A stretch of 42,783 nucleotides of DNA from a virus (lineage: Duplodnaviria; Heunggongvirae; Uroviricota; Caudoviricetes), in IMG/VR virus record IMGVR_UViG_2630968543_000005. One strand, written 5' to 3'. The position numbers were made by a program, and so were the translations under genes. The notes beneath the pieces were generated by a model. The model had not been told where the DNA came from, did not search any database, and saw only the letters and a program-made list of their open reading frames with translations. Shown here one piece after another: positions 1 to 10,434 of the stretch (position 1 is the stretch's first letter; each line of letters begins with the position of its first letter).

Positions 1-2946
1 TTAGTGCTTCCCTTCTATTAAGTCTAACCTAGCTTTTATCTTATCCATTTCTCTGCGCTGCCATGCCGCCTCGATATAGAATAAGAGATCAGGTCTGACC
101 CCCCATCTAGATCCTGCTGGCGTTATTTCAACGCGCTCAATGATGTCTTCCATTACCATCACTGGATTATCATCCTCATCAACAATGATGCTCCCGTCAT
201 TATCAGTCAGCGGCATTTCCCTTTGGCCAGTAATGACGTCATCATATACTGCGGGATAATCGTCATAGCAAAGAAAGGCATAGCAGCATGTTGTGCTTTC
301 TTCTTCCATGAGTCCGTGAGAAATAAGAACATCACGAAGTTGCTGCGCGATTACACCATGATGTATCCTCGCCCCTTCTTCCCCCTTTATAGCGACAGCG
401 TTCAGCCATTTATAAGCGATATACCTGACGTCACCCCAGGCATCCAGCAATGCTTCGTCAGGAGAGACCGGCTCTGTCTTTAATGTTCCGTCACTGGTAA
501 CCACAGGATTGGAGCCAAGATAAACTATCGAGAACCTGTTTCCCGGACCACCAAGAGCATTTACATTATCAAGATAAGGTTTAACATCTCCGTTCTCAAA
601 AAGATGTTCGAGTGCGTTATATACCGCGCGACGTGGAGTACTGCTTCTGGAACCATGCAACGTTATCATTGCACCATCTGCTGAAGACGTTGTTTCACCG
701 CCGCTAACGATTAATCTCTGAGCGGTAACATCATCAGACGGTACTTTCTTCGCAATAATGGCGTAATTACCCTCAAGTTTGACTTCCGCGCGAACTTGTC
801 CTGATGTACCTGCATGGACAGTCAGTGACTGGACGGCAACATCATCTGTGAAATCAACGGGTACAGGAACCGTCCTCACGCCTGACGTCGACATAAAAGT
901 AGGAAGCGTTCTGTTAGGAGTGGCTCCGTAGACAAAATCCCTTGAAACAAATTCTTCCTGTTTAATTTTCACCCTGAAACAATACAAATCAGCCGGGTGA
1001 CCATCGTGAACATAAGGATATTTTCTGTTGTTATCCCCTATGCTCCATGGGTTTAGAAAATCTTCCCCACCGAAAATGTAGTACAGCCAGTTGTCTTTGA
1101 TACAAACTGAACCAACACCAACCGCAGAGTTAACTATTCCGCCCTGATAAATCTGATCAGTAACATTAACCCACTCTACATTATCCAGACTCCACTCATT
1201 GACGTTAACTCTGGTCATAAATGTTCTTGGATAATTTCCTGCATAACGGTTATCAGGTTCTCCTCCTTCCCACTCACCAAATGCGCGCTCACTGCCAAAA
1301 ATAACCAGCTCATCGCCAACTTTGGCAAAAGGAAGGTTTGAGTGATGAACATTATTTGGGAAGCGAAGAGAATTCCATGATGTACCTAAATCAGAGCTTC
1401 TGTGCAATGAACTACCGGGTTGAGTACTTAATGTCCCCCTGGTCGTCAGATACAGAATGCCATCATAATATTTTACACATGGCTCAGATGCATTCGCCTC
1501 ATATTCTGCAGGTATGCGTCTGCGAACAAAGCTACCAGGAGAACCGAAAGCATCAGAGAAATAGAGTATCCCAAGCTCGCGTGGACCAATATCACCATTA
1601 TGGTAGCCAACAGCAAAACTGTTATCGCTAATCGTCGCAAAACTGTGAATCTCAGTAACAGGAGTGCTTCCGTCAACAAAAGAAGGAATAGTTCCAAGAC
1701 TGGTTTTTCTCCATGGTGACGAGTGAAATGATGTGCCAAAACTCCAGTATCTACCCTCGTTATTCTGATCCACATCCTGGGTATTTTGCGTCGTAACTGT
1801 AAAGGTATTTTTATCAATAACAGTAGTCACCGTCATATTCCCGGTAACATCTGTAACACCAGAGTTTGAGAAGTTGACAAAATCACCAGCAAATAATCCG
1901 TGATCAGTAATGCGAATATAAGCGACTTGCTGATTTGCTGCTTTCGTTATACCACCATAAACGCGAAGGCTGCGACTCATTGGGCGATCCCACAACTCTG
2001 CAACCTGCAGTTTATTTCCTCTCACGGTCCGCGTCTCAATTACAGCAAAAAGGCGATTTCTGACAACCCCCATACTCATGCAGTGATAGTTAACTGTGGG
2101 ATAGTTTTCATGTAAATCTGTAAGCCATTCCGGCGTTGTCCAGGTCTTCCCGTCATCTCCTGAGCGAACCCATGCAACATGGAGGTTATTTACACCATGG
2201 CGGTCTCCAGCCATAAAAGGCGCATAGATGACATTGTCATATACAAACGTTTTATCCTGCGTCCAAGCGTTGTACCACGGTGTATCTGTAATTTTAAATA
2301 ACTCTCCCTGGATAAAATCTTCAGAAGCATAAAAAAGAGGCTGACCCGGTATTCTCTCAAATAAAAAACGAGCATTTTTAAATCGACTGACATCTGGAAG
2401 AGTTGATACTTTAAAAGTAAGCCCTCGCCCATCTATCTTTTCACCACCTGTTGCAACAGAAAGTAATTCTGATAGAGCTGATGTATCATCATGAACACCA
2501 TCACCAATAGCCCCCCAACCTCTTACATCATAACTGTCTCTCCATCTTGCTATCTGAAGTTTTGGGTATTTATTCGCTCCATCTGGGTCTTCTAATTGCT
2601 GCCGTAGTTGATCAGGGTCATACTTCAGCACATTAGGAAAATAGAACTGCTGCGCACCATACGCATCATAAACAGCCATAGAATGGCCTTGCACGGTAAC
2701 GAACTTGGCAATCTGTCCGTTATATACCGGATATCCAGCAGCGTTAATGATGATTGGTTGCGAAACAGGAACGTGAGAGCCGTCTTCGTTCTCCACATAA
2801 GCCTGAATCTGGTTTTCAGGATTTACCGGGTCAGTGTCAATTTTACCGATATAAATTTTGCCATTGGCTACAGCTTTAAAAGAACGCGCCATAGTGAAGA
2901 GTTGCGAAGGCATGCTTACCACAACATTTGCGGTGATATCTGTCAT
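1..2946 (-). CDS. Tailspike protein: P22 gp9-type head-binding N-terminal domain, putative endosialidase catalytic region, C-terminal intramolecular chaperone domain
   Basis: 981-aa ORF; N-terminus [10 protein letters not shown]...[21 protein letters not shown] resembles P22 tailspike head-binding domain; two Asp-box motifs ([16 protein letters not shown]) typical of sialidase beta-propellers; C-terminal ~150 aa ([11 protein letters not shown]...) resembles autocleaving chaperone domain of endosialidases/tail fibres; TAA stop at 1-3; GGAG RBS upstream of ATG at 2946. Confidence 0.8.
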
Positions 2947-3046: not shown

Positions 3047-3949
3047 TCAGTAGTTATGTACTGAAGGAGGTAATTTTTTATTCTTAAGTCTCATCCATGC
3101 GGAAAGATTCGTTGGTCCGTCTGGCTCATTGATATCAACATCTCGTGAGTGATTGATTAAAACGTCTCTCGCTATATCGATAATACGGGAGAACTCATAA
3201 CCGCAATCATGACATCTGCCGGAATAGTTCGATTGAATTTGTTTCAGCGCCGGATACAGTTCGCGGAATAATGCCTGTGAACGGTTGGCATAATCCCATA
3301 GCCATACAAGGCTGTTTGCTTCTTTTGCAGAAAGCTCGTTGGTTTTCTTCTCTTGTTTGCCGATGAACTCACCTTCAAGCACTACCCTGTGGATGTACTC
3401 TACGGCTTGCGGTATCTGAGATGCATCAAGCTCTTCAATACTTTCCACATTGAAACGCTGATGAATCATTGCATAAGCTTCTGGGTACATTAGATGCTTT
3501 TTGCTGACTAGCATATTTACAGCATCACGAAGCGGAGTCCTGTCATCAACAGATGTTTTCTTACGTGCATTTTCTGCCTTTCCCTTTGTCCAGTAGTCAT
3601 GCAGTACAGTAAAGCATTCTTCCTGGTACTGAATCAGTTTATCGCGGATGTCAGCTCGAACTTTCTCAGGGTTGATGCTGAACAGCCATCCATTTAACTT
3701 CTTCAAAGGAAGGCAGAGTAGCTTACGAAGCTTCCCATCAGCGGCAACCATATTCATATGAATACAGTTGAACTTATCTAGTTGTTTCATAAGTTTTTGT
3801 TGCTGAGTACCCCAACTCATTCCAAGGTTTTCAACGATTGGCTTCATCGCAACGTATGCAACTCCGGCAGCCATGGCGGTGATAATTTGCTGACCGTTGA
3901 ATGGTACGTAAGAGGTGTTCACTGCTTCTAAAATTGCTATACTATTCAT
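3047..3949 (-). CDS. ant: Antirepressor Ant (P22 immI type)
   Basis: ORF 3047-4015 trimmed to ATG at 3949 ([21 protein letters not shown]..., 300 aa) with GGAG RBS; position downstream of arc-like gene and upstream of tailspike as in P22. Confidence 0.7.
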
Positions 3950-4011
3950 GTTGGTTTTTCTCCACGGATTTACTGACAACCGAAGCCCTGACTGTTCCCG
4001 CAGTTGGGGCT

Positions 4012-4233
4012 TCACTGTTTTTGTAAGTCACTGTAGCTATAAAGCCACTGACCACTCATTTTTGATTTGATTGACTCTACTGAATCACGGCAAGGAATAA
4101 TTCCACCTGACATCATTCTGATCTCCGTAAATTCACCACTCCTTATCGACTCAATGCCATTAACGTTAACTAAAGATTTACCTCTACCAAGTGCATTCTC
4201 ATAGCCAATCTCATCAACCTCGATAAACTTCAT
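4012..4233 (-). CDS. Hypothetical small protein between arc and ant
   Basis: 73-aa ORF, ATG overlaps arc stop (ATGA), GAGGGGA RBS; no recognisable family. Confidence 0.35.
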
Positions 4234-4382
4234 ACCGTTATCCCCTCTCTCTTCAGGCTGTCCAGCAATCGCTTAATCACTTCCGAGTTAAACGACCGGC
4301 ATTCTTCTTTGGCCTTTCCTGTAATCGCATCTTTTAGCGACTGAGGCATTCTCACCAAAATTCTGCTAACTTCTTTTTCCAT
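4230..4382 (-). CDS. arc: Arc-like ribbon-helix-helix repressor
   Basis: MEKEVSRILVRMPQSLKDAITGKAKEECRSFNSEVIKRLLDSLKREG resembles P22 Arc RHH fold (..GRSVNSEIYQRVMESFKKEG); alternative upstream ATG at 4418. Confidence 0.6.
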   Translation of the reverse strand: MEKEVSRILVRMPQSLKDAITGKAKEECRSFNSEVIKRLLDSLKREGITV

Positions 4383-4491
4383 ATCGCCACCACGTGAGTT
4401 ATTGTGAATCACAAACATATCACCGTGACTATATCAAGTCAAAATTTTTTTGAATACACTGTGATATCAATGTGATTATCACGGTGTAAGT
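4383..4491. promoter_or_regulatory. immI divergent promoter/operator region (Pant/Pmnt-like)
   Basis: Palindromes TGTGAATCACA (4404-4414), TATCACCGTGA (4418-4428), ACACTGTGATA..TATCACGGTGT (4456-4487) between divergent arc and mnt starts. Confidence 0.5.
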
Positions 4492-4746
4492 ATGACGAAG
4501 GTTAGAGACATAGCCCCATATAGCGTAAGAATGCCAGATAGCCTCAAGCGCGACCTGACCATAAGAGCATCGAAAAACGGACGCTCATTAAATTCAGAAA
4601 TAGTTATGATCTTGCAAGCTGCTATTGATGAAGAAAAATCACCAAGATCAATAGAAGGTTTTGCTCAACAAGAATCTGAAAAATTTAGGGAGGCTCTTCT
4701 TAAGACTCTCAGCAGCATGTACGGAGAAGATAAAAAACCCACCTGA
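4492..4746 (+). CDS. mnt: Mnt-like ribbon-helix-helix repressor
   Basis: 84 aa; ..RMPDSLKRDLTIRASKNGRSLNSEIVMILQAAI.. resembles P22 Mnt N-terminal RHH; divergent from arc as in P22. Confidence 0.6.
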   Translation: MTKVRDIAPYSVRMPDSLKRDLTIRASKNGRSLNSEIVMILQAAIDEEKSPRSIEGFAQQESEKFREALLKTLSSMYGEDKKPT

Positions 4747-4756
4747 CGGTGGGTTT
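4735..4756. terminator. Bidirectional rho-independent terminator between mnt and the 322-aa gene
   Basis: AAACCCACC-TGAC-GGTGGGTTT hairpin flanked by A-run upstream and T-rich tract downstream; mnt stop codon lies in the loop. Confidence 0.5.
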
Positions 4757-4761
4757 CATAA

Positions 4762-5730
4762 TTAGATTTCTGGTTTCATTCTTCCAAAAACCTTTTCTAT
4801 TCCTTTTTCGTATTCTTCTCTTGTCTCACTCATCGCTGCGACCCCAAGAAGCTTACCGATATGCTGACGCAAAGCCTTGACACCAATTTCAGAAAGGAAC
4901 AGATGCAACTTATCAGATTGTTTTCCGTTCTCGTCTCGGCTGGCTCGAATCTGTTCAAGGATTTTACCTTTACTCTTTGCTAGCGGGGTGTATATCTGCA
5001 TGTTGGTTAGCTGCCCAAAACGAATAGGCCGTCCTTTCTCTGGCCTATTCAGGCCGTACAATCGATACCACTCCTCGTATAACTCATCTGGAAATTCCTT
5101 TTCATATTGACGAGCCTCTTCACGAACAAACGCTTTGAACTCGTCAATGACAGCCTGAACTTCTGGACGATAACCAGCAAGCGCATACGCAACCCCCTTA
5201 ATTCCCGCCTTAGCGGAGGCATTAATAAGTCTCTGCGCTGCAGCCGCGGCCTTTAACCGTGATTGTGGTAGGTCGTCATTATCTTTTGCTTCTATTAGTG
5301 CCCTACCAATATCAACAATTGCTGTAATGTCATAACCTAACGCTTGATGAACGGTTTTAGACTTCGAAGTAAGTTGAAATTTATAGGGATTTTCCATTTT
5401 TCGCTGCAATTCTAGATCTCGGTATTTGCTCATATACTGAGCGCCAAGCAGTTGATCTAAATCCCTGGCATGTTCACCAATCCCTAACAACTGAGATAAT
5501 CCAGTTTTCGTAACAACAACAGTTTTCGACTCGTCATCCAGTACATAACATTCAGCATCAATGCCAAAATCATCTAAAAAGTTACCACGATGAGTTGCCC
5601 TGAGAATCTTACTTTTCCATCTTGCAGCCGCTGCTTTCTTTGCTATTTCAGAACGCTGCTCTTTAGTCAGCGACTTTGCGCGAGCGATCCCGCCCTTAGC
5701 TTTCCCTTCGCCACTTTTCTTTTCAGTCAT
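4762..5730 (-). CDS. Hypothetical 322-aa protein with basic N-terminal motif; accessory gene at the P22 sieA-equivalent position
   Basis: ORF 4762-5793 trimmed to ATG 5730 (MTEKKSGEGKAKGGIARAKSLTKEQRSEIAKKAAAARW...) with AAGGTG RBS; no transmembrane segment; not a recognisable virion protein. Confidence 0.55.
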   Translation of the reverse strand: MTEKKSGEGKAKGGIARAKSLTKEQRSEIAKKAAAARWKSKILRATHRGNFLDDFGIDAECYVLDDESKTVVVTKTGLSQLLGIGEHARDLDQLLGAQYMSKYRDLELQRKMENPYKFQLTSKSKTVHQALGYDITAIVDIGRALIEAKDNDDLPQSRLKAAAAAQRLINASAKAGIKGVAYALAGYRPEVQAVIDEFKAFVREEARQYEKEFPDELYEEWYRLYGLNRPEKGRPIRFGQLTNMQIYTPLAKSKGKILEQIRASRDENGKQSDKLHLFLSEIGVKALRQHIGKLLGVAAMSETREEYEKGIEKVFGRMKPEI

Positions 5731-5886
5731 AATGCAAGCACCTTTATTGTGTTGTATGCTTGCATTATATACACTGTACACACATACAAGCAAGCATAAA
5801 ACTAAAACAAAATGCTTGCATTACAACCGCGCTACTCCAACTACACATTATCATCTGGTATCCTGCTCAAAACTAAGGAGGTTGGT
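5731..5886. promoter_or_regulatory. Divergent intergenic region with four ATGC-N2-GCAT type palindromic repeats
   Basis: ATGCAAGCA 5732-5740, ATGCTTGCAT 5756-5765, AAGCAAGCAT 5788-5797, ATGCTTGCAT 5812-5821; RBS TAAGGAGG at 5874-5881. Confidence 0.4.
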
Positions 5887-6216
5887 GTGCTTGAATGGTT
5901 TCTGTTGGCTGCATTAGTCGTTTCTGGTTTGGTGTATGAGTATCGAATGCACTCTCTAACAAAAAAAATAGGAATTCTAGAAAACGAATATTGTGCTCTC
6001 AAATCCTCACTGGAACGTGAGCAAGGGGACTTAAAAATCTCTCTGTCTAGCATTGAGCGTTCTATAGAGAGCTTAGAGGATAAGGTTGATCGTATAAAGA
6101 ATGAGGATATTCATGATATTAAGGACGACATATCCTTCTTAAAATCTTGGTTGAAAAATGTTGGGAAAATTGCCACATCAACACGAGATAAGCTCAATCC
6201 ATCCATGGATGACTAA
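5887..6216 (+). CDS. Hypothetical membrane-anchored coiled-coil protein (109 aa)
   Basis: In-frame GTG at 5887 five nt after TAAGGAGG; N-terminal hydrophobic helix LEWFLLAALVVSGLVY then heptad-like charged region; stop abuts gp16-like stop back to back (TAATTA). Confidence 0.5.
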   Translation: MLEWFLLAALVVSGLVYEYRMHSLTKKIGILENEYCALKSSLEREQGDLKISLSSIERSIESLEDKVDRIKNEDIHDIKDDISFLKSWLKNVGKIATSTRDKLNPSMDD

Positions 6217-8385
6217 TTACTCCTGTGCCATTCCGCTTAGCGATGCCACAATTCCAGCTCTTGCTAAACGCTGGAACTCTTCGTTTCCTAGTGCCTCGCG
6301 TATTGCTTTTACGGCGGCCTTATTTGCCATAAATCTGCGTTCCGCCGCCGCTAATGCGCCATCACTTGCCCCAACCTTAACTGCCTTTGTTGCCTCTTGA
6401 ACAGCCTTTTCAATAGCGTAACGACCGCTTCTAGTTGCGGATAATTTCGCTATCGCTCCTTTTGCCATTGCATCAATTGCCCCACCTGCAGCGCCACCCG
6501 CTATTGCTCCAATAACGCCTCCTCCAGAGAACCCTGCGATAGTGCCAGTAGTTCTAAAAGCGCCAGACAATGCGCTCTCTAAAACTGGATGAAGGCCATT
6601 CTCAAGAGTGCTAATGGCTGGCATAGATCGCCCTGTCTGTTCAACATATCGAAGTGGCTTTGTTGCTGCTCGTGCAAGTTCTCCGTATGAACTTGTAATC
6701 CTGCCAAGTTCTGGAGAATATCGACTAATTGCCTTCACGTTTTGTGGGGTAAGAATAGTCGCGATATGCTTAATTCCAGCCTCTTCAGACTTACCTCCGC
6801 GTACCCCTTGCGACATTGCATCTTGTAATATTGATGCAATTGCTGGCGCGCGTTCCGACTCAGGTAGGGCGCTTATTATTTTATGGAACTGACCTGTTCC
6901 ACTTTTTGCTGAACCCTGTAACGCCTTAGATCCATTAGTTACCAACTGATCAGTTGCAAGGTCTCTACCAAACGCTGCTTCAGCCTGTTCTTGTGCTGTA
7001 AATCTTGCCTTTGACAGATCATTAGCTTTTTGCCAGTCATCAAGAAAACCGCCATTTTGAGCCATTATGCGCATATCTTCCGTTGCTGCATCACGAAGCT
7101 CAGCCATGCGCCTTGCCGTATTTGCCTCACCAGACCTTATATACTTCTGCTCTGCGTCAGCAAGTTTACTTCGCCATGCCTTCATGGCATCAAACGTGAT
7201 TCCTTTTTTACCAGTTTTAGCATAAGCAGATGCGAATTGTTTCATCTCAGGAGTTAGCGGCATGCCAGCCAAAATATCACCCTGAATTGTAGCGTTCAGG
7301 TTTGACATTCTGGCCTTTGCGTCAGGCATCGTGGAGCGGACGCTATCCCATGCGGCCTTTTCTGAATTTTTCATTTTATCAATACTTGCCAAAACCCTTT
7401 GTTTTATGGCTGCACTTTTTTCTGATGCAGTTCCTGCTTCAGCCCCAAATTCATCCAATGCTGAGTTAAATTTCGACTCTATTTCACTGAATGCTTTGGT
7501 GTGTGCATCCTGTGTAATTCCGGGCTTTGACGCCAGAATCCCCTCCGCCTGAGCAAGACCACGACTACCTGATCTCATGCCAGGAGTTAATGCGTTGATA
7601 TCTATTCCAGCAGTATCTGCTGCTTTTGCTATTTCGTCTGACACATTAGCTGACTGTCTGGCAATAATCTCTCTTCCTGTACCAGACTTTGCCATTTTCG
7701 AAACATCAGCAGCGGAATTTATTGCCCCGCCACCAAGAACTTGAGGTGATTTAGAGGTTAAGATCCTTCCAGCCCCAGAAAGTATCCCCTGAGCACCAAT
7801 ATTGATACCACCGTTAATGGCAGCATTTTGTGCAAAGTCGCCCTCCTGATTTGCAGCATCAGCAAGAGAACCTGCAATCATGTTTCCTGCGGAACCGATA
7901 TCTCCAGCGAGCTTTGCTGGCGCTCCAGCAGCTTTTGCCGCTGTGCCAATTGGCAGGAGATACCCACCAATTGTTTCACCGGCTTGCGCGTAAGGGTCTG
8001 TCGGTCGATCGACTGGACGATAGACATCATCCAAAACCTTGGGGCCACCAAGCCCCTGGCTGATTGCATTAATCAGACTTGCGCCACCCTGCAATACGTC
8101 AAATGGTATGTTTACCAGACCACGACCAGCCTGCTCTGCAATTTGCCCTGCACTTTGACCACCAGTGAGCCAATCGCCAGCTTGTTGCATCAATGATGGT
8201 TCTTCTTTCTGCTGCTGAGGTGGAGGGTATGCTGCATAAAACTGATCTCTTGCTTCAGCCCATTTGTCACCAGCCTTAGGGGCAACAACCTCATCAAAAT
8301 ATTGCGCTTGAGCCTGTGCTTTCTGTTCTTCAGTTAACGCCTGATACTGTGGAGAGGCGATAACATCTTTCCATGCTTTAGCCAT
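6217..8385 (-). CDS. Ejection/injection protein (P22 gp16-like, positional)
   Basis: 722-aa Ala/Gly/Gln-rich ORF last in the gp7-gp20-gp16 ejection-protein series. Confidence 0.6.
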
Positions 8386-9734
8386 TAATCACCCCATAAA
8401 GACGAGAAACCGGACTTATTGCTGTCGCTTCCTGATTTTCGCTCACTAACATATGTGTCATAACCTGATGAACTATATCCCATTGATTCAGCCTCCCTTG
8501 CTGCAACCTTTTGAAATACAGAATATTGCGATCGGATTTCAGATAACTGTTTTCTGACGACCTCTTCAGGCTGTGTTATATCGAGTTTCGCGATCAGGTT
8601 TTCCAGTTTTTGGCCTTCAGCATTGGAGAGGCTACCCATACCTCGCATAGTCTGCACGTTCTGGACAAACGCCCCCGACTTTAATTCTTCTATCGCATTA
8701 CGGTTTGCAAGCCCTTCAGCACTTGTGAAGCCATCTATATTTCTTCCTTCGAAGCGACCAATACCTTCAAGCTCCTTCTTACCAAGCAAAGAATCAATTT
8801 TCTCTATCCCTCGCTCACCAGTAATTAACGCATTGTTGTAATTATTGTTGCCATCAAGCCATCTCTTAGCCTGAGACATTCTGGCTGACGTTGCAGCTTT
8901 ACCGGTTAGCGGATCAATTCCCGTCGCTGCTATCTGTGAGTTAAGAGACAAAACATCCATATCCTGAAGTTGTCCTGCTCTTTCAAGGGCCGCCTGTGAC
9001 TGCTTAAACACATACTTGTCGTGATTCAGTCTTGCCATTTGAGCCTTATAGGAAAGATCCTGACCCCTAATAGCCCTCGCATTCGTCATGTCATTATTGC
9101 GAATGGTTTCGTTAATTCTTTGCTGCTCCTGCTGGCGACCAACCATCTTGTCCTGAACAGCAAACGCCTTTTCTGGCCCAAGCGCACCGAGAGACATCGT
9201 AGTCAGCATGTGTGATAGCTGCTCTGGATTCTGGATACCTGTCTGAATCATCCAGTCAGCATTCGTCCCCACGCGATTTAACCTGTCCTTGTTGTCAGTA
9301 ATGAATTTACTGTAGGCTTCCGGTCCCTGAGAAAGAGCGACGTTAGCCCTCATGGCTAAATCGCCCATATCGTTGCGTTGCTGCTCATTAAGACCGGAAA
9401 ACGCCTGTTGTGCCTGTGCAACAAACGCTGGATTTTCCTGGGCAAACTTAAATAGTCCCGATGGATCACCAGAAGCCCATGCATCAGCGTGAACCTTATT
9501 GAACGCACTAATCGCTTTCTGTTGCTGCTCCTGCTTATAAATATCAGCAACTCCAGCCAGACCACGTAACGCGGTCAGACCAACGTTATTTGCACCTGAT
9601 CGAGCCAGTTCATTGTTTTCGCGGATCAGACCAAGCGTTGCGTTAATGTCGCTTGCCTTTGGCGCATTCTCATTTTGCGTACCGATGCCAGCCAGAAAAC
9701 CACCAGAATTAATACCCTGTTGCCAAGTAGCCAT
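8385..9734 (-). CDS. Ejection protein (P22 gp20-like)
   Basis: 449-aa ORF, position and size consistent with P22 gene 20. Confidence 0.6.
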
Positions 9735-9744
9735 TGATTACCCC

Positions 9745-10434
9745 TTAAAACAGTGAACCAAGCAGACCAAGACCAGCACCAATACCAGCCCCCCACGGAG
9801 TTGATAGCTCGAGAGCACTGGCTATGCCACCACCCAAAAGCGCACCGGATGCAGCACCACTAACACCCTGCCGCAATGCTGACGGTCGGTTGGCGTTTGC
9901 CGCTGCAAGAGCCGCGCTTTGCTGTGAAATCTGGCTCATGTTGTTGGCATATGTCTGCCCGGCGTTTGCCTGCCCCTGAAGAGCGCCAAGACCGATATTT
10001 GCCAGGTTGTTGTAATTGTTCATTTGTCCAGATAGCCATTGCTGACCAAGCGTTGGTGCGATTGTTGCTAACTGATTACTGGTTGCGGTGGAACCCAATC
10101 CACCTGTTGCTTCCGCTGCCGCCAGACTCTGATAGCGAGCCTGACCAGCAAGATCTTTGTACTGCTGAGAGTTGTAATACTGGTTAAGTGCCTGACCTTG
10201 CCCTTCCAGAGACGATAAGTTCTCAAGGCTGCCGACATACTTCCCAGCCAGAGGAGTAAACGGCTTCAGGTTGTTCATGATGGTATTGAACTGCTGATTT
10301 TGCAGGTCTGCGGCATACTTCTGAGCTTCTGCGGCATACTTTGCACTTTTATCAGAGCCACCTTTCCCGCCTTTTTCAGGGCAATAAGGTTCCTCGCCGC
10401 GCAGTTTTCTGCCCAGCTTAAATGCATATAACAT
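9745..10434 (-). CDS. Ejection protein (P22 gp7-like)
   Basis: 229 aa, same length as P22 gp7, Gly/Ala-rich hydrophobic C-terminus, position. Confidence 0.6.
   Translation of the reverse strand: MLYAFKLGRKLRGEEPYCPEKGGKGGSDKSAKYAAEAQKYAADLQNQQFNTIMNNLKPFTPLAGKYVGSLENLSSLEGQGQALNQYYNSQQYKDLAGQARYQSLAAAEATGGLGSTATSNQLATIAPTLGQQWLSGQMNNYNNLANIGLGALQGQANAGQTYANNMSQISQQSAALAAANANRPSALRQGVSGAASGALLGGGIASALELSTPWGAGIGAGLGLLGSLF

What the first reader, a model, noticed from the sequence alone, without database searches (positions are those of the whole stretch)
4762..6216. Two-gene accessory locus at the P22 sieA-equivalent position with four operator-like palindromes
Between the last ejection-protein gene and the immI region, where P22 carries sieA, this prophage has a 322-aa soluble protein (minus strand, basic N-terminal motif KGGIARAKSLTKEQRSEIAKKAAAARW) and a divergent 109-aa membrane-anchored coiled-coil protein with a near-consensus RBS. 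Their 156-bp shared intergenic region holds four evenly spaced ATGC-N2-GCAT-type palindromes (5732, 5756, 5788, 5812). The locus is bracketed by a bidirectional terminator at 4735-4756. Neither protein looks like a virion or known regulatory protein, so this is a self-contained, self-regulated cargo module and a candidate superinfection-exclusion or defence system.
Basis: partly seen in the sequence, partly recalled or inferred. Interest (0 to 1): 0.75.

Follow-up and report, generated by a model that had tools for sequence, protein, structure and literature searches.

The report
Self-regulated P63C gene beside sieA slot
The "two-gene locus" is really two independent accessory cassettes in a known exclusion-gene hotspot of a P22-like E. 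coli prophage: a small membrane protein in the sieA slot, and a protein of unknown function (P63C family) that carries its own promoter inside four deeply conserved binding sites and is a plausible but untested anti-phage gene.

Summary
Both ORFs, the 156-bp spacer, the four sites and the hairpin are at the stated coordinates, and four such sites within 90 bp is far beyond chance.

The 109-aa protein is HkcB. It sits behind the same leader, ribosome-binding site and GTG as P22 sieA. At least 13 unrelated small envelope proteins, SieA included, use that slot.

The 322-aa protein belongs to the P63C family (PF10546, phrog_2384), whose function is unknown. The two genes assort independently, so this is not a two-gene system.

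The four sites belong to the P63C gene. All 29 diverse viral homologues aligned (58-94% identity), plus ST104 ORF23 (31%) and a Burkholderia phage gene (48%), keep GCAAGCA/TGCTTGC sites at fixed positions over the -35, the -10/+1 and the start codon. Spacers vary freely and there is no RNA covariation. Relatives with a diverged N-terminal motif have different repeats; relatives without it have none.

Outside P22-like phages the cassette usually follows the cI repressor, the slot that BstA occupies.

Best reading: an autorepressed, self-contained DNA-binding cassette, possibly also LexA-controlled. A defence role is inferred from context only. PADLOC, PDB and profile comparisons find no known relative.

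The parts
4734..4757 (-). Hairpin terminator directly after the stop codon of the P63C gene
   Evidence: 10-pair stem followed by TTTTTTAT on the minus strand. repeat I7: 9-nt perfect arms. No plus-strand terminator was called.
4762..5730 (-). P63C-family protein gene, 322 aa
   Evidence: PF10546, E 6.8e-14, aa 199-286; phrog_2384, E 1.7e-104, full length. RefSeq names it 'P63C domain-containing protein'.
5617..5706 (-). Codons 9-38: basic two-helix N-terminal motif GKAKGGxARAxxLTxEQRSEIAKKAAxARW, the candidate operator-recognition element
   Evidence: Invariant residues G13, G14, A16, R17, R37, W38. About 68% identical to ST104 ORF23, whose remainder is about 25% identical, and that gene has the same sites. 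The motif is diverged in 933W, which has different repeats. It is absent in two relatives that have no sites.
5341..5490 (-). Codons 81-130: hypervariable, recombining segment of the central alpha/beta domain
   Evidence: for example P0023 is 92% / 42% / 98% identical in the N-terminus / aa 81-130 / C-terminus.
4873..5136 (-). Codons 199-286: the Pfam P63C domain (helical)
5732..5741 (.). Site S1 (gene sense GTGCTTGCAT), between the Shine-Dalgarno sequence and the ATG
5756..5765 (.). Site S2 (gene sense ATGCAAGCAT), abutting the -10 and covering the predicted +1
5764..5769 (-). Predicted -10 hexamer TATAAT of the P63C promoter
   Evidence: TAnnnT is kept in 30 of the 31 aligned promoters. The generic scan missed the promoter because its -35 matches only 3 of 6.
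5772..5791 (-). LexA-box-like element GCTTGTATGTGTGTACAGTG between the -35 and the -10
   Evidence: heterology index 13.0, borderline. The same position scores 8.6-10.9 in eight homologous promoters.
5788..5797 (.). Site S3 (gene sense ATGCTTGCTT), containing the predicted -35 TTGCTT (5788-5793, 18-nt spacer)
5812..5821 (.). Site S4 (gene sense ATGCAAGCAT), upstream of the promoter
5834..5889 (+). Conserved leader of the sieA-type slot: -10-like TATCAT 5849-5854, SD TAAGGAGGT 5874-5882, GTG 5887
   Evidence: short hits H13-H16. (at least 120 viral contigs). (same leader in front of P22 sieA, with the annotated sieA promoter just upstream).
5887..6216 (+). HkcB allele, 109 aa: N-terminal transmembrane segment plus coiled coil, in the sieA slot
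   Evidence: 97.7% nucleotide identity to HK620 hkcB. (phrog_5962, E 1.9e-61). (only weak coiled-coil hits).

Best explanation
The region holds two adjacent, independent accessory cassettes. They lie in the gene 16 / immI hotspot of a P22-like (Lederbergvirus) E. coli prophage.

(1) 5834-6216: the sieA slot. A conserved leader, RBS and GTG drives whichever small envelope protein has recombined in. Here that protein is HkcB, a single-pass membrane coiled-coil protein of unknown function. By position it is most likely an exclusion-type protein.

(2) 4734-5821: a one-gene P63C cassette. Its sigma-70 promoter sits inside an array of four GCAAGCA/TGCTTGC sites, and the gene ends at its own terminator.
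- S4 lies upstream of the promoter.
- S3 lies on the -35 (TTGCTT).
- S2 lies on the -10/+1 (TATAAT).
- S1 lies between the SD and the ATG.

Inferred mechanism. The P63C protein binds the four sites cooperatively as an oligomer, two inverted-repeat pairs around one dyad. It uses its conserved N-terminal basic two-helix motif, probably helped by the Bro-N-like central domain. Binding shuts off its own promoter, which holds the protein at a low set level in the lysogen. In many relatives, and marginally here, a LexA-like box between the -35 and the -10 would add SOS control.

Inferred function (weakest step). The protein is a prophage-expressed DNA-binding accessory factor that acts on incoming or competing phage. 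It would work like BstA without belonging to that family. The hypervariable segment at aa 81-130 would be the specificity determinant.

My sub-confidences:
- independent cassettes: about 0.9
- sites are DNA operators of the P63C promoter: about 0.8
- the binder is the P63C protein itself: about 0.65
- anti-phage function: about 0.35
For: Independence of the two genes.
- The leader is found in at least 120 viral contigs.
- It is followed by at least 13 unrelated ORFs, including P22 SieA.
- P63C sites lie upstream in 22 of 116 such loci, across 8 slot alleles.
- The divergent position also varies: hkcC-like 28, P63C 23, a lipoprotein 17, none 30.

The sites belong to the P63C gene.
- 53 of 55 non-redundant upstream regions keep the four sites at -84..-91, -62..-68, -29..-35 and -7..-11, whatever the flank.
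- The alignment footprint shows sites and -10 nearly invariant and spacers free.
- The same array occurs in ST104 ORF23 (31% identity), Burkholderia phage Bups phi1 and locus L212.

DNA sites, not RNA helices.
- S4 and S3 lie upstream of the predicted promoter.
- Pairing does not exceed shuffled controls, and 8 C.A changes are uncompensated.

The binder is the gene's own product rather than a host factor.
- The array is kept across gamma- and beta-proteobacterial phages.
- 933W (diverged N-motif) has ACGTGCA x3 instead. vB_E192a has GTTAGATAT x2.
- Javan515 and L213 (no N-motif) have no repeats.
- There is no other cluster of sites in the 42.8-kb window.

Context.
- 15 of 24 distinct upstream neighbours outside P22-late contexts are Peptidase_S24 + HTH repressors.
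- ST104 ORF23 lies between cI and gene 24, as bstA does in BTP1.
- Distant members sit beside the integrase or repressor in Gordonia, Burkholderia and Streptococcus phages.
- BstA has the same design: a single gene, a KilA-N-like domain, its own promoter and terminator, and a cognate DNA element over the gene start.

Specificity segment. Intragenic mosaicism is centred on aa 81-130.
Against: - No experiment or database links P63C to defence. PADLOC gives no hit for this protein or for 80 diverse members, apart from matches to extra fused domains. The searchable literature contains nothing functional.
- The same N-terminal motif ends widespread standalone proteins of about 78 aa. Three such loci have no GCAAGCA sites. 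The motif alone therefore does not prove the specificity.
- Near-universal operators would let any P63C-carrying phage titrate a resident P63C. BstA, by contrast, has cognate-specific aba elements. This argues against a self-immunity role for the sites.
- The 933W-type member sits in the nin region, a lytic early operon.
- The promoter and transcription start are predicted only. The generic scan did not call the promoter.
- The LexA matrix was rebuilt from memory, and the window's box is borderline.
Confidence: 0.5

Rival explanations
1. The P63C protein is a phage regulator of the Bro/Ant/Rha kind. It would be an SOS-induced DNA-binding or repressor-binding factor that tunes induction or cross-talk between co-resident prophages, rather than a defence protein. 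The four sites would still be its autoregulatory operators.
For: - From my own knowledge, the P63C domain was defined among domain-shuffled Bro-N/KilA-N phage transcription regulators (Iyer, Koonin and Aravind 2002).
- The model gives weak Bro-N, Ant-N and 'repressor domain' fold hits.
- A LexA-like box sits at a fixed promoter position in 13 of 31 relatives, with heterology index as low as 8.6.
- Here the gene lies next to immI (arc, mnt, ant).
- In 933W it lies next to roi, in the nin region.
Against: - There is no second cluster of sites anywhere in this phage, so no other promoter is an obvious target.
- The neighbouring CI repressors carry S24 autocleavage domains and do not need an antirepressor.
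- hhalign against this window's own Ant protein is insignificant.
- The hypervariable central segment fits a target-recognition arms race better than a housekeeping regulator.
Confidence: 0.25
2. One reading: the 322-aa and 109-aa genes form one divergent two-gene defence or exclusion system, co-regulated through the shared four-palindrome intergenic region.
For: - The two genes are divergent neighbours 156 bp apart.
- S4 is centred about 44 bp upstream of the transcription start inferred for the slot gene by homology to the annotated P22 sieA promoter.
- In this arrangement the P63C cassette has replaced that promoter's -35. P63C bound at S4 could therefore incidentally repress or activate hkcB.
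Against: - Independent assortment: 8 of the 21 loci in the main hkcB cluster have P63C sites, 11 do not, and 2 have too little flank to tell. P63C pairs with at least 8 different slot alleles.
- HK620 has hkcB next to hkcC with a 30-bp spacer and no sites.
- Most P63C cassettes lie after cI with no HkcB-like partner.
Confidence: 0.07
3. The four sites are not operators for the P63C protein. They are either binding sites for a host transcription factor or the arms of two mRNA hairpins (S4:S3 and S2:S1) that control translation.
For: - The arms are highly complementary: a 12-nt perfect inverted repeat for S1/S2.
- S1 lies between the SD and the start codon.
- The small standalone proteins that carry the same basic motif are sometimes named 'RNA-binding protein' by their sources.
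Against: - There is no covariation. Pairing equals the shuffled expectation, and 8 changes are uncompensated.
- The conserved -35 and -10 place S4 and S3 outside the transcript and S2 at +1.
- The array is kept from Enterobacterales to Burkholderia and changes with the protein subfamily. This is unlike a site for a single host factor.
Confidence: 0.06

Closest known systems
BstA / aba (Salmonella prophage BTP1; Owen et al. 2021, PMC8585504)
   Same: - A single prophage gene of about 310 aa with its own promoter and rho-independent terminator.
- An N-terminal half predicted to be a KilA-N/Bro-N-type DNA-binding domain.
- Homologues of the window's gene occupy the same slot directly downstream of cI.
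- A short cognate DNA element overlaps the start of the gene.
   Different: - There is no detectable homology: hhalign probability 5.6% and no PADLOC hit.
- aba is one 63-bp element with CCCGCC direct repeats and is specific to each BstA variant. Here there are four 10-bp sites over a promoter, and they are nearly identical across proteins only 31-48% identical.
- Abortive infection is shown for BstA and untested here.
P63C domain family (Pfam PF10546; phrog_2384), e.g. ST104 ORF23, 933W L0095, Mx8 p63
   Same: - True membership: the domain hit is above the gathering threshold and the PHROG match is full length.
- The roughly 320-aa architecture is conserved down to about 27% identity.
   Different: Nothing about the protein differs; it is an ordinary member. 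What appears undescribed, as far as the searchable literature shows, is the conserved four-site promoter array, its link to the N-terminal motif, and the preference for certain prophage slots.
P22 SieA and the sieA locus
   Same: - HkcB sits in the same position and orientation, convergent with gene 16.
- It sits behind the same leader, SD and GTG as P22 sieA.
- Both are small membrane proteins.
   Different: - There is no sequence similarity: BLASTP finds no alignment, and the PHROGs differ, 5962 against 7745.
- SieA has several transmembrane segments, whereas HkcB has one plus a coiled coil.
- Exclusion by HkcB is untested.
HK620 hkcB/hkcC
   Same: - hkcB is 97.7% identical at the nucleotide level.
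- The layout is the same: terminator, leftward gene, rightward hkcB, gene 16.
   Different: HK620 has hkcC (121 aa, phrog_1365) where this phage has the P63C cassette. HK620 has a 30-bp spacer and none of the four sites.
Phage and satellite hotspots of antiviral systems (P2/P4; Rousset et al. 2022, PMC9122126)
   Same: Conserved flanks bracket interchangeable accessory genes, and many alleles sit at one position.
   Different: - This is a different phage group.
- The exchange point here is a conserved translation-initiation leader.
- Two adjacent divergent variable slots occur together.
- Most of the alleles are untested.

Membership tests
P63C domain family (PF10546) | Pfam P63C domain scoring above the gathering threshold | tested here: met
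   52.7 bits against a cut-off of 26.1, aa 199-286. 79 of 80 diverse relatives also hit it.
P63C domain family (phrog_2384 architecture) | Full-length architecture of about 320 aa: N-terminal basic motif, central alpha/beta domain, P63C domain | tested here: met
   E 1.7e-104 over aa 6-321; full-length alignments.
BstA | Sequence or profile homology to BstA | tested here: not met
   hhalign probability 5.6%; no PADLOC hit.
BstA | KilA-N-like DNA-binding domain in the N-terminal half | tested here: inconclusive
BstA | Location immediately downstream of the prophage cI repressor | tested here: not met
   In this window the gene lies between mnt and the sieA slot. Homologues do meet the feature: 15 of 24 distinct neighbours are S24 repressors, and ST104 ORF23 follows cI.
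BstA | Cognate DNA element (aba) over the gene start that suppresses the protein; abortive-infection phenotype | not testable with these tools
   Four conserved sites span the gene start. Their effect on the protein and any phenotype need experiments.
HkcB (phrog_5962) | Full-length sequence match | tested here: met
   E 1.9e-61; 97.7% nucleotide identity to HK620 hkcB.
SieA (phrog_7745) | Protein homology to P22 SieA | tested here: not met
   no BLASTP alignment; a different PHROG.
sieA-slot cassette | Position convergent with gene 16, behind the conserved leader, SD and GTG | tested here: met
   the P22 leader is the same; many alleles follow it.
Two-gene defence system / operon pair | Consistent co-occurrence of the two genes | tested here: not met
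   independent assortment. HK620 has hkcB without P63C.
LexA (SOS) regulon promoter | CTGT-N8-ACAG box with a low heterology index overlapping the promoter | tested here: inconclusive
   the window has TTGT-N8-ACAG with index 13.0 (background first percentile 12.6). Eight relatives score 8.6-10.9. The matrix was rebuilt from about 20 operators recalled from memory.
Structured cis-regulatory RNA | Covariation that supports helices | tested here: not met
   the covariation score and percentage paired do not exceed the shuffles.
Known defence systems (PADLOC-DB 2.0.0) | HMM match to any catalogued defence protein | tested here: not met
   none for P63C; HkcB gives only a weak DpdH hit (E 0.002, 16 bits), consistent with coiled-coil composition.

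The most novel reading that the evidence does not exclude
P63C proteins are a large, overlooked family of single-gene prophage immunity proteins, with about 1,360 cluster representatives at 50% identity. They would work like BstA: a DNA-binding sensor-effector held at a set level by a four-site autorepressed promoter. The recombining segment at aa 81-130 would recognise the invader. The operator array on the replicating prophage would titrate the protein and spare the carrier. The gene 16 / immI region of P22-like phages would then be a double hotspot where such genes and SieA-type envelope proteins are exchanged through a conserved translation-initiation leader.
Probability: 0.2. Interest if true: 0.8.

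Novelty: new variant of a known kind. Interest (0 to 1): 0.5.

Why it matters
If the P63C cassette is an anti-phage gene, it adds a widespread single-gene family to the prophage immunity repertoire. The family spans gamma- and beta-proteobacterial, actinobacterial and streptococcal phages. It would come with a ready-made handle for experiments: four defined operator sites and a defined N-terminal motif.

Some results stand whatever the function turns out to be:
- The promoter architecture is conserved well beyond the protein sequence.
- The operator motif changes together with the N-terminal motif.
- At least 13 unrelated small envelope proteins, SieA among them, are swapped behind one conserved leader.

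These results explain how the sieA region of P22-like phages diversifies. They also give a rational list of candidate exclusion genes to test.

The analysis also corrects start-codon annotations in public records. ST104 ORF23 is annotated from an ATG inside S2, and the 611R6 slot gene from an ATG inside S4.

Tried and rejected
- PADLOC, NCBIfam and Pfam scans of both proteins, and of aa 1-47 and 44-190 separately. Only the P63C domain and weak coiled-coil hits came back.
- A profile search of the PDB sequences: 0 hits.
- hhalign against BstA and against this phage's own Ant protein: both insignificant.
- A Pfam census of 80 distant members, looking for a recognisable N-terminal domain. It found none. 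The rare extra domains (HTH_3, RelB, ABC ATPase) explain the isolated PADLOC hits to mad3, mad8 and AriA.
- The RNA-hairpin hypothesis for the inverted repeats, rejected for lack of covariation.
- The idea that the motif marks further targets in the phage genome, rejected because there is no other cluster.
- The idea that the N-terminal motif always comes with GCAAGCA sites, rejected for the standalone 78-aa proteins.
- Literature searches for P63C and hkcB. They returned only passing mentions or unrelated uses of the strings. The paper that defined the domain is not held in the library.
- A generic sigma-70 scan found no promoter in the spacer. The promoter call rests on comparative conservation instead.
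- I could not place a convincing -35 for the hkcB promoter in this window.
Full report
**What is there.** The window is a P22-like (Lederbergvirus) E. coli phage or prophage. Over 4400-6500 it is 100% identical to Escherichia phage vB_EcoP-611R6 and to a prophage of E. coli VR50.

On the minus strand the late operon runs gp7 (9745-10434), gp20 (8385-9734) and gp16 (6217-8385). Then come the two genes of the finding. After them lies an immI-like region:
- a Mnt/Arc-like gene, 4492-4746, plus strand
- Arc, 4230-4418, minus strand
- a 73-aa ORF
- Ant, 3047-4015, minus strand
- the tailspike

**Check of the observation.**
- The 322-aa ORF runs from ATG 5730 to 4762 on the minus strand.
- The 109-aa ORF runs from GTG 5887 to 6216, with TAAGGAGGT four bases upstream.
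- The spacer is 156 bp.
- The four ATGC-WW-GCAT sites are at 5732, 5756, 5788 and 5812. Two are perfect and two have one mismatch.

The motif is not enriched in the window overall: 7 hits against 9.8 expected, and the GCAAGCA heptamer gives 8 against 10.7. But four hits within 90 bp has a random-placement probability of 5e-7 to 8e-6.

Two corrections are needed. First, the spacing is 24/32/24 bp, and the central AA/TT alternates. The sites therefore form two inverted-repeat pairs with one dyad axis at 5776/5777. Second, the hairpin at 4734-4757 scores as an intrinsic terminator only for the minus strand, that is, for the 322-aa gene.

**The 109-aa gene is an allele of the sieA slot.**
- It is HkcB: 97.7% nucleotide identity to HK620 hkcB, and phrog_5962 at E 1.9e-61.
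- In P22 the gene convergent with gene 16 is sieA.
- P22 sieA is preceded by the same sequence, TGGTATCCTGCACAAAACTAAGGAGGTTGGTGTG.
- I scanned viral contigs for this leader and found at least 120 loci.
- Behind the identical SD and GTG lie at least 13 unrelated ORFs of 62-164 aa. Nearly all have an N-terminal transmembrane segment or signal peptide.
- They include SieA (164 aa), two HkcB sub-types and members of several other PHROGs.
- HkcB and SieA show no sequence similarity.

The slot is thus a recombination hotspot whose exchange point is a conserved translation-initiation region. The sieA position is already cited in the literature as a recognised immunity hotspot.

**The 322-aa gene is a separate cassette.**
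- It is a P63C-domain protein: PF10546 at aa 199-286, and phrog_2384 over its full length. Its function is unknown, and RefSeq already names it this way.
- This allele occurs in 74 of 5,426 complete E. coli genomes.
- The family is large: 1,363 representatives at E <= 1e-3, with the full-length architecture kept down to about 27% identity.
- In the leader-containing loci, P63C sites lie upstream in only 22 of 116, spread over 8 slot alleles. HkcB frequently occurs without them.
- The divergent position is itself variable: hkcC-like (28), P63C of four different alleles (23), a 143-aa lipoprotein (17), nothing (30).
- HK620 has hkcC with a 30-bp spacer and none of the sites.

The two genes are therefore not one system.

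**The four sites are the P63C gene's own control region.**
- I collected 80 viral loci with homologues of 58-100% identity. Of 55 non-redundant upstream regions, 53 keep GCAAGCA/TGCTTGC sites at -84..-91, -62..-68, -29..-35 and -7..-11 from the ATG.
- This holds whatever lies upstream: a terminator after cI, a tRNA end, or a LexA-regulated umuDC-like operon.
- The two exceptions (L061, L063) look like deletions between the direct repeats S3 and S1.
- In an alignment of 31 diverse promoters, the sites and a TAnnnT hexamer abutting S2 are nearly invariant, while the spacers vary freely.
- With TTGC-- inside S3, 17-18 nt upstream, this defines a sigma-70 promoter. S3 covers the -35 and S2 covers the -10/+1. 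S1 lies between the SD and the ATG, and S4 lies upstream.
- Testing S4:S3 and S2:S1 as RNA helices gave no covariation. Pairing was 92.6% against 93.2% in shuffles, and eight C.A changes were uncompensated.

The complementarity simply reflects four copies of one DNA motif.

**Who binds the sites?**
- The array is identical in ST104 ORF23. That protein is 31% identical overall, but about 68% identical in the N-terminal 40 residues. The array is also identical in Burkholderia phage Bups phi1 and in locus L212.
- It is recognisable in Pseudomonas phage Lodos, Burkholderia phage DC1 and, partly, Gordonia phage Barco.
- The 933W homologue has a diverged N-terminal motif without the ARW ending. It has three ACGTGCA repeats instead. 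vB_E192a has two GTTAGATAT repeats.
- Two homologues that lack the N-terminal motif, Streptococcus phage Javan515 and L213, have no repeats and follow the preceding gene directly.
- No other cluster of sites exists in this 42.8-kb window.

Together this favours autoregulation by the P63C protein, with the invariant GGxARA...RSEIAxKAAxARW motif as the recognition element.

There is a caveat. The same motif forms the C-terminal tail of abundant standalone proteins of about 78 aa that belong to no curated family, and three such loci have no GCAAGCA sites. The assignment of specificity therefore remains an inference.

**A possible second input.** Between the -35 and the -10, 13 of 31 promoters carry (C/T)TGT-N8-ACAG at a fixed position. 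I scored these with a heterology-index matrix rebuilt from about 20 E. coli LexA operators recalled from memory.
- Eight of the 13 promoters score 8.6-10.9. The training sites score 2.1-11.4.
- The window's box (5772-5791) scores 13.0. The first percentile of the background is 12.6.

SOS control is plausible for the family and marginal for this copy.

**The protein.**
- The AF2 model has a confident alpha/beta core at aa 40-190 (pLDDT 85-94), preceded by two basic helices and followed by a helical P63C region.
- Foldseek against viral models gave weak hits enriched for Bro-N, Ant-N-terminal, 'repressor domain' and KilA proteins.
- No Pfam model matches aa 1-198, either here or in 80 diverse relatives.
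- From my own knowledge, PF10546 derives from the 2002 Iyer-Koonin-Aravind survey of domain-shuffled Bro-N/KilA-N phage regulators. I could not retrieve that paper.
- Close relatives are mosaics. The N- and C-termini can be 92-98% identical while aa 81-130 is about 42% identical, and the reverse also occurs. This suggests an exchangeable specificity segment.

**Context and function.**
- Outside the P22-late setting, 15 of 24 distinct upstream neighbours are S24-peptidase + HTH CI-type repressors. The cassette follows the terminator of cI.
- ST104 ORF23 lies between cI and gene 24. That is exactly where bstA lies in BTP1.
- Distant members sit next to the integrase or repressor in Gordonia, Burkholderia and Streptococcus phages. 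The 933W-type member is the exception, in the nin region.
- BstA is the closest functional analogue. It is a single-gene prophage abortive-infection protein with a KilA-N-like domain, its own promoter and terminator, and a cognate DNA element over the gene start.
- It is not a relative: hhalign probability is 5.6% and there is no PADLOC hit.
- No paper in the searchable library assigns a function to P63C.

**Verdict.** The locus is two independent cassettes in a double hotspot. The solid new result is the deeply conserved four-operator promoter of the P63C cassette and its co-variation with the N-terminal motif. The defence role is a reasonable, testable inference from position and design, at about 0.35. 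A Bro/Ant-like regulatory role is the main rival.

Noticed in passing
L083:3417-3455 (ST104 ORF23); window 5812-5889 (as annotated in ON470589): Public start codons look wrong. ST104 ORF23 is annotated from an ATG inside site S2, whereas the conserved SD-S1-ATG context puts the start at L083:3453. The 611R6 slot gene is annotated from the ATG inside S4 (134 aa), whereas the conserved SD and GTG give 109 aa.
   Followed up: partly
L061, L063, L065 (about 90 nt upstream of the P63C start): These variants have only two sites. The sequence between S3 and S1, which includes the -10 and S2, is missing, as expected from recombination between the direct repeats. The cassette may be promoterless there.
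   Followed up: partly
L048, L070, L071 (150-200 nt upstream of the P63C start): Perfect LexA boxes (TACTGTATAnATAAACAGTA) serve a divergent umuD/umuC-like operon placed next to the P63C cassette.
   Followed up: no
L214, L215, L218 (about 50-70 nt upstream of the 78-aa genes): The standalone 78-aa proteins that end in the GGxARA...ARW motif share an upstream element, GGTAGTG(G/T)(C/G)TCAGT(T/C)T, in three unrelated contigs. One of these genes is convergent with, and overlaps the 3' end of, a Bro-N gene. Neither the proteins nor the element belong to any curated family.
   Followed up: no
window 1-2946 (minus strand): The tailspike ORF is 981 aa with a P22-type head-binding N-terminus. The otherwise identical phage 611R6 has a 639-aa tailspike followed by an OafA acetylase. 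The window therefore differs from 611R6 at the receptor-binding module.
   Followed up: no
window 4012-4233 (minus strand): A 73-aa ORF (phrog_11805, unknown function) lies between arc and ant in the immI region and overlaps both neighbours by 4 bases. P22 has the sar antisense RNA in this area.
   Followed up: no
L054 and L017 (neighbours of the P63C cassette): By my reading of their first residues only, some P63C cassettes lie next to other candidate defence or toxin-antitoxin genes. L054 has a divergent 158-aa protein that looks like a DUF4065/SocA-type antitoxin. L017 has a downstream 178-aa Clp-like protease-fold protein.
   Followed up: no
(leader-containing viral loci): One P22-like locus carries a 933W-type P63C allele (MKNDDVSGKAKGGKARAAKMTAEQRKESSRK...) at the same divergent position. 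Very different P63C subfamilies have therefore been recruited repeatedly to this spot.
   Followed up: partly
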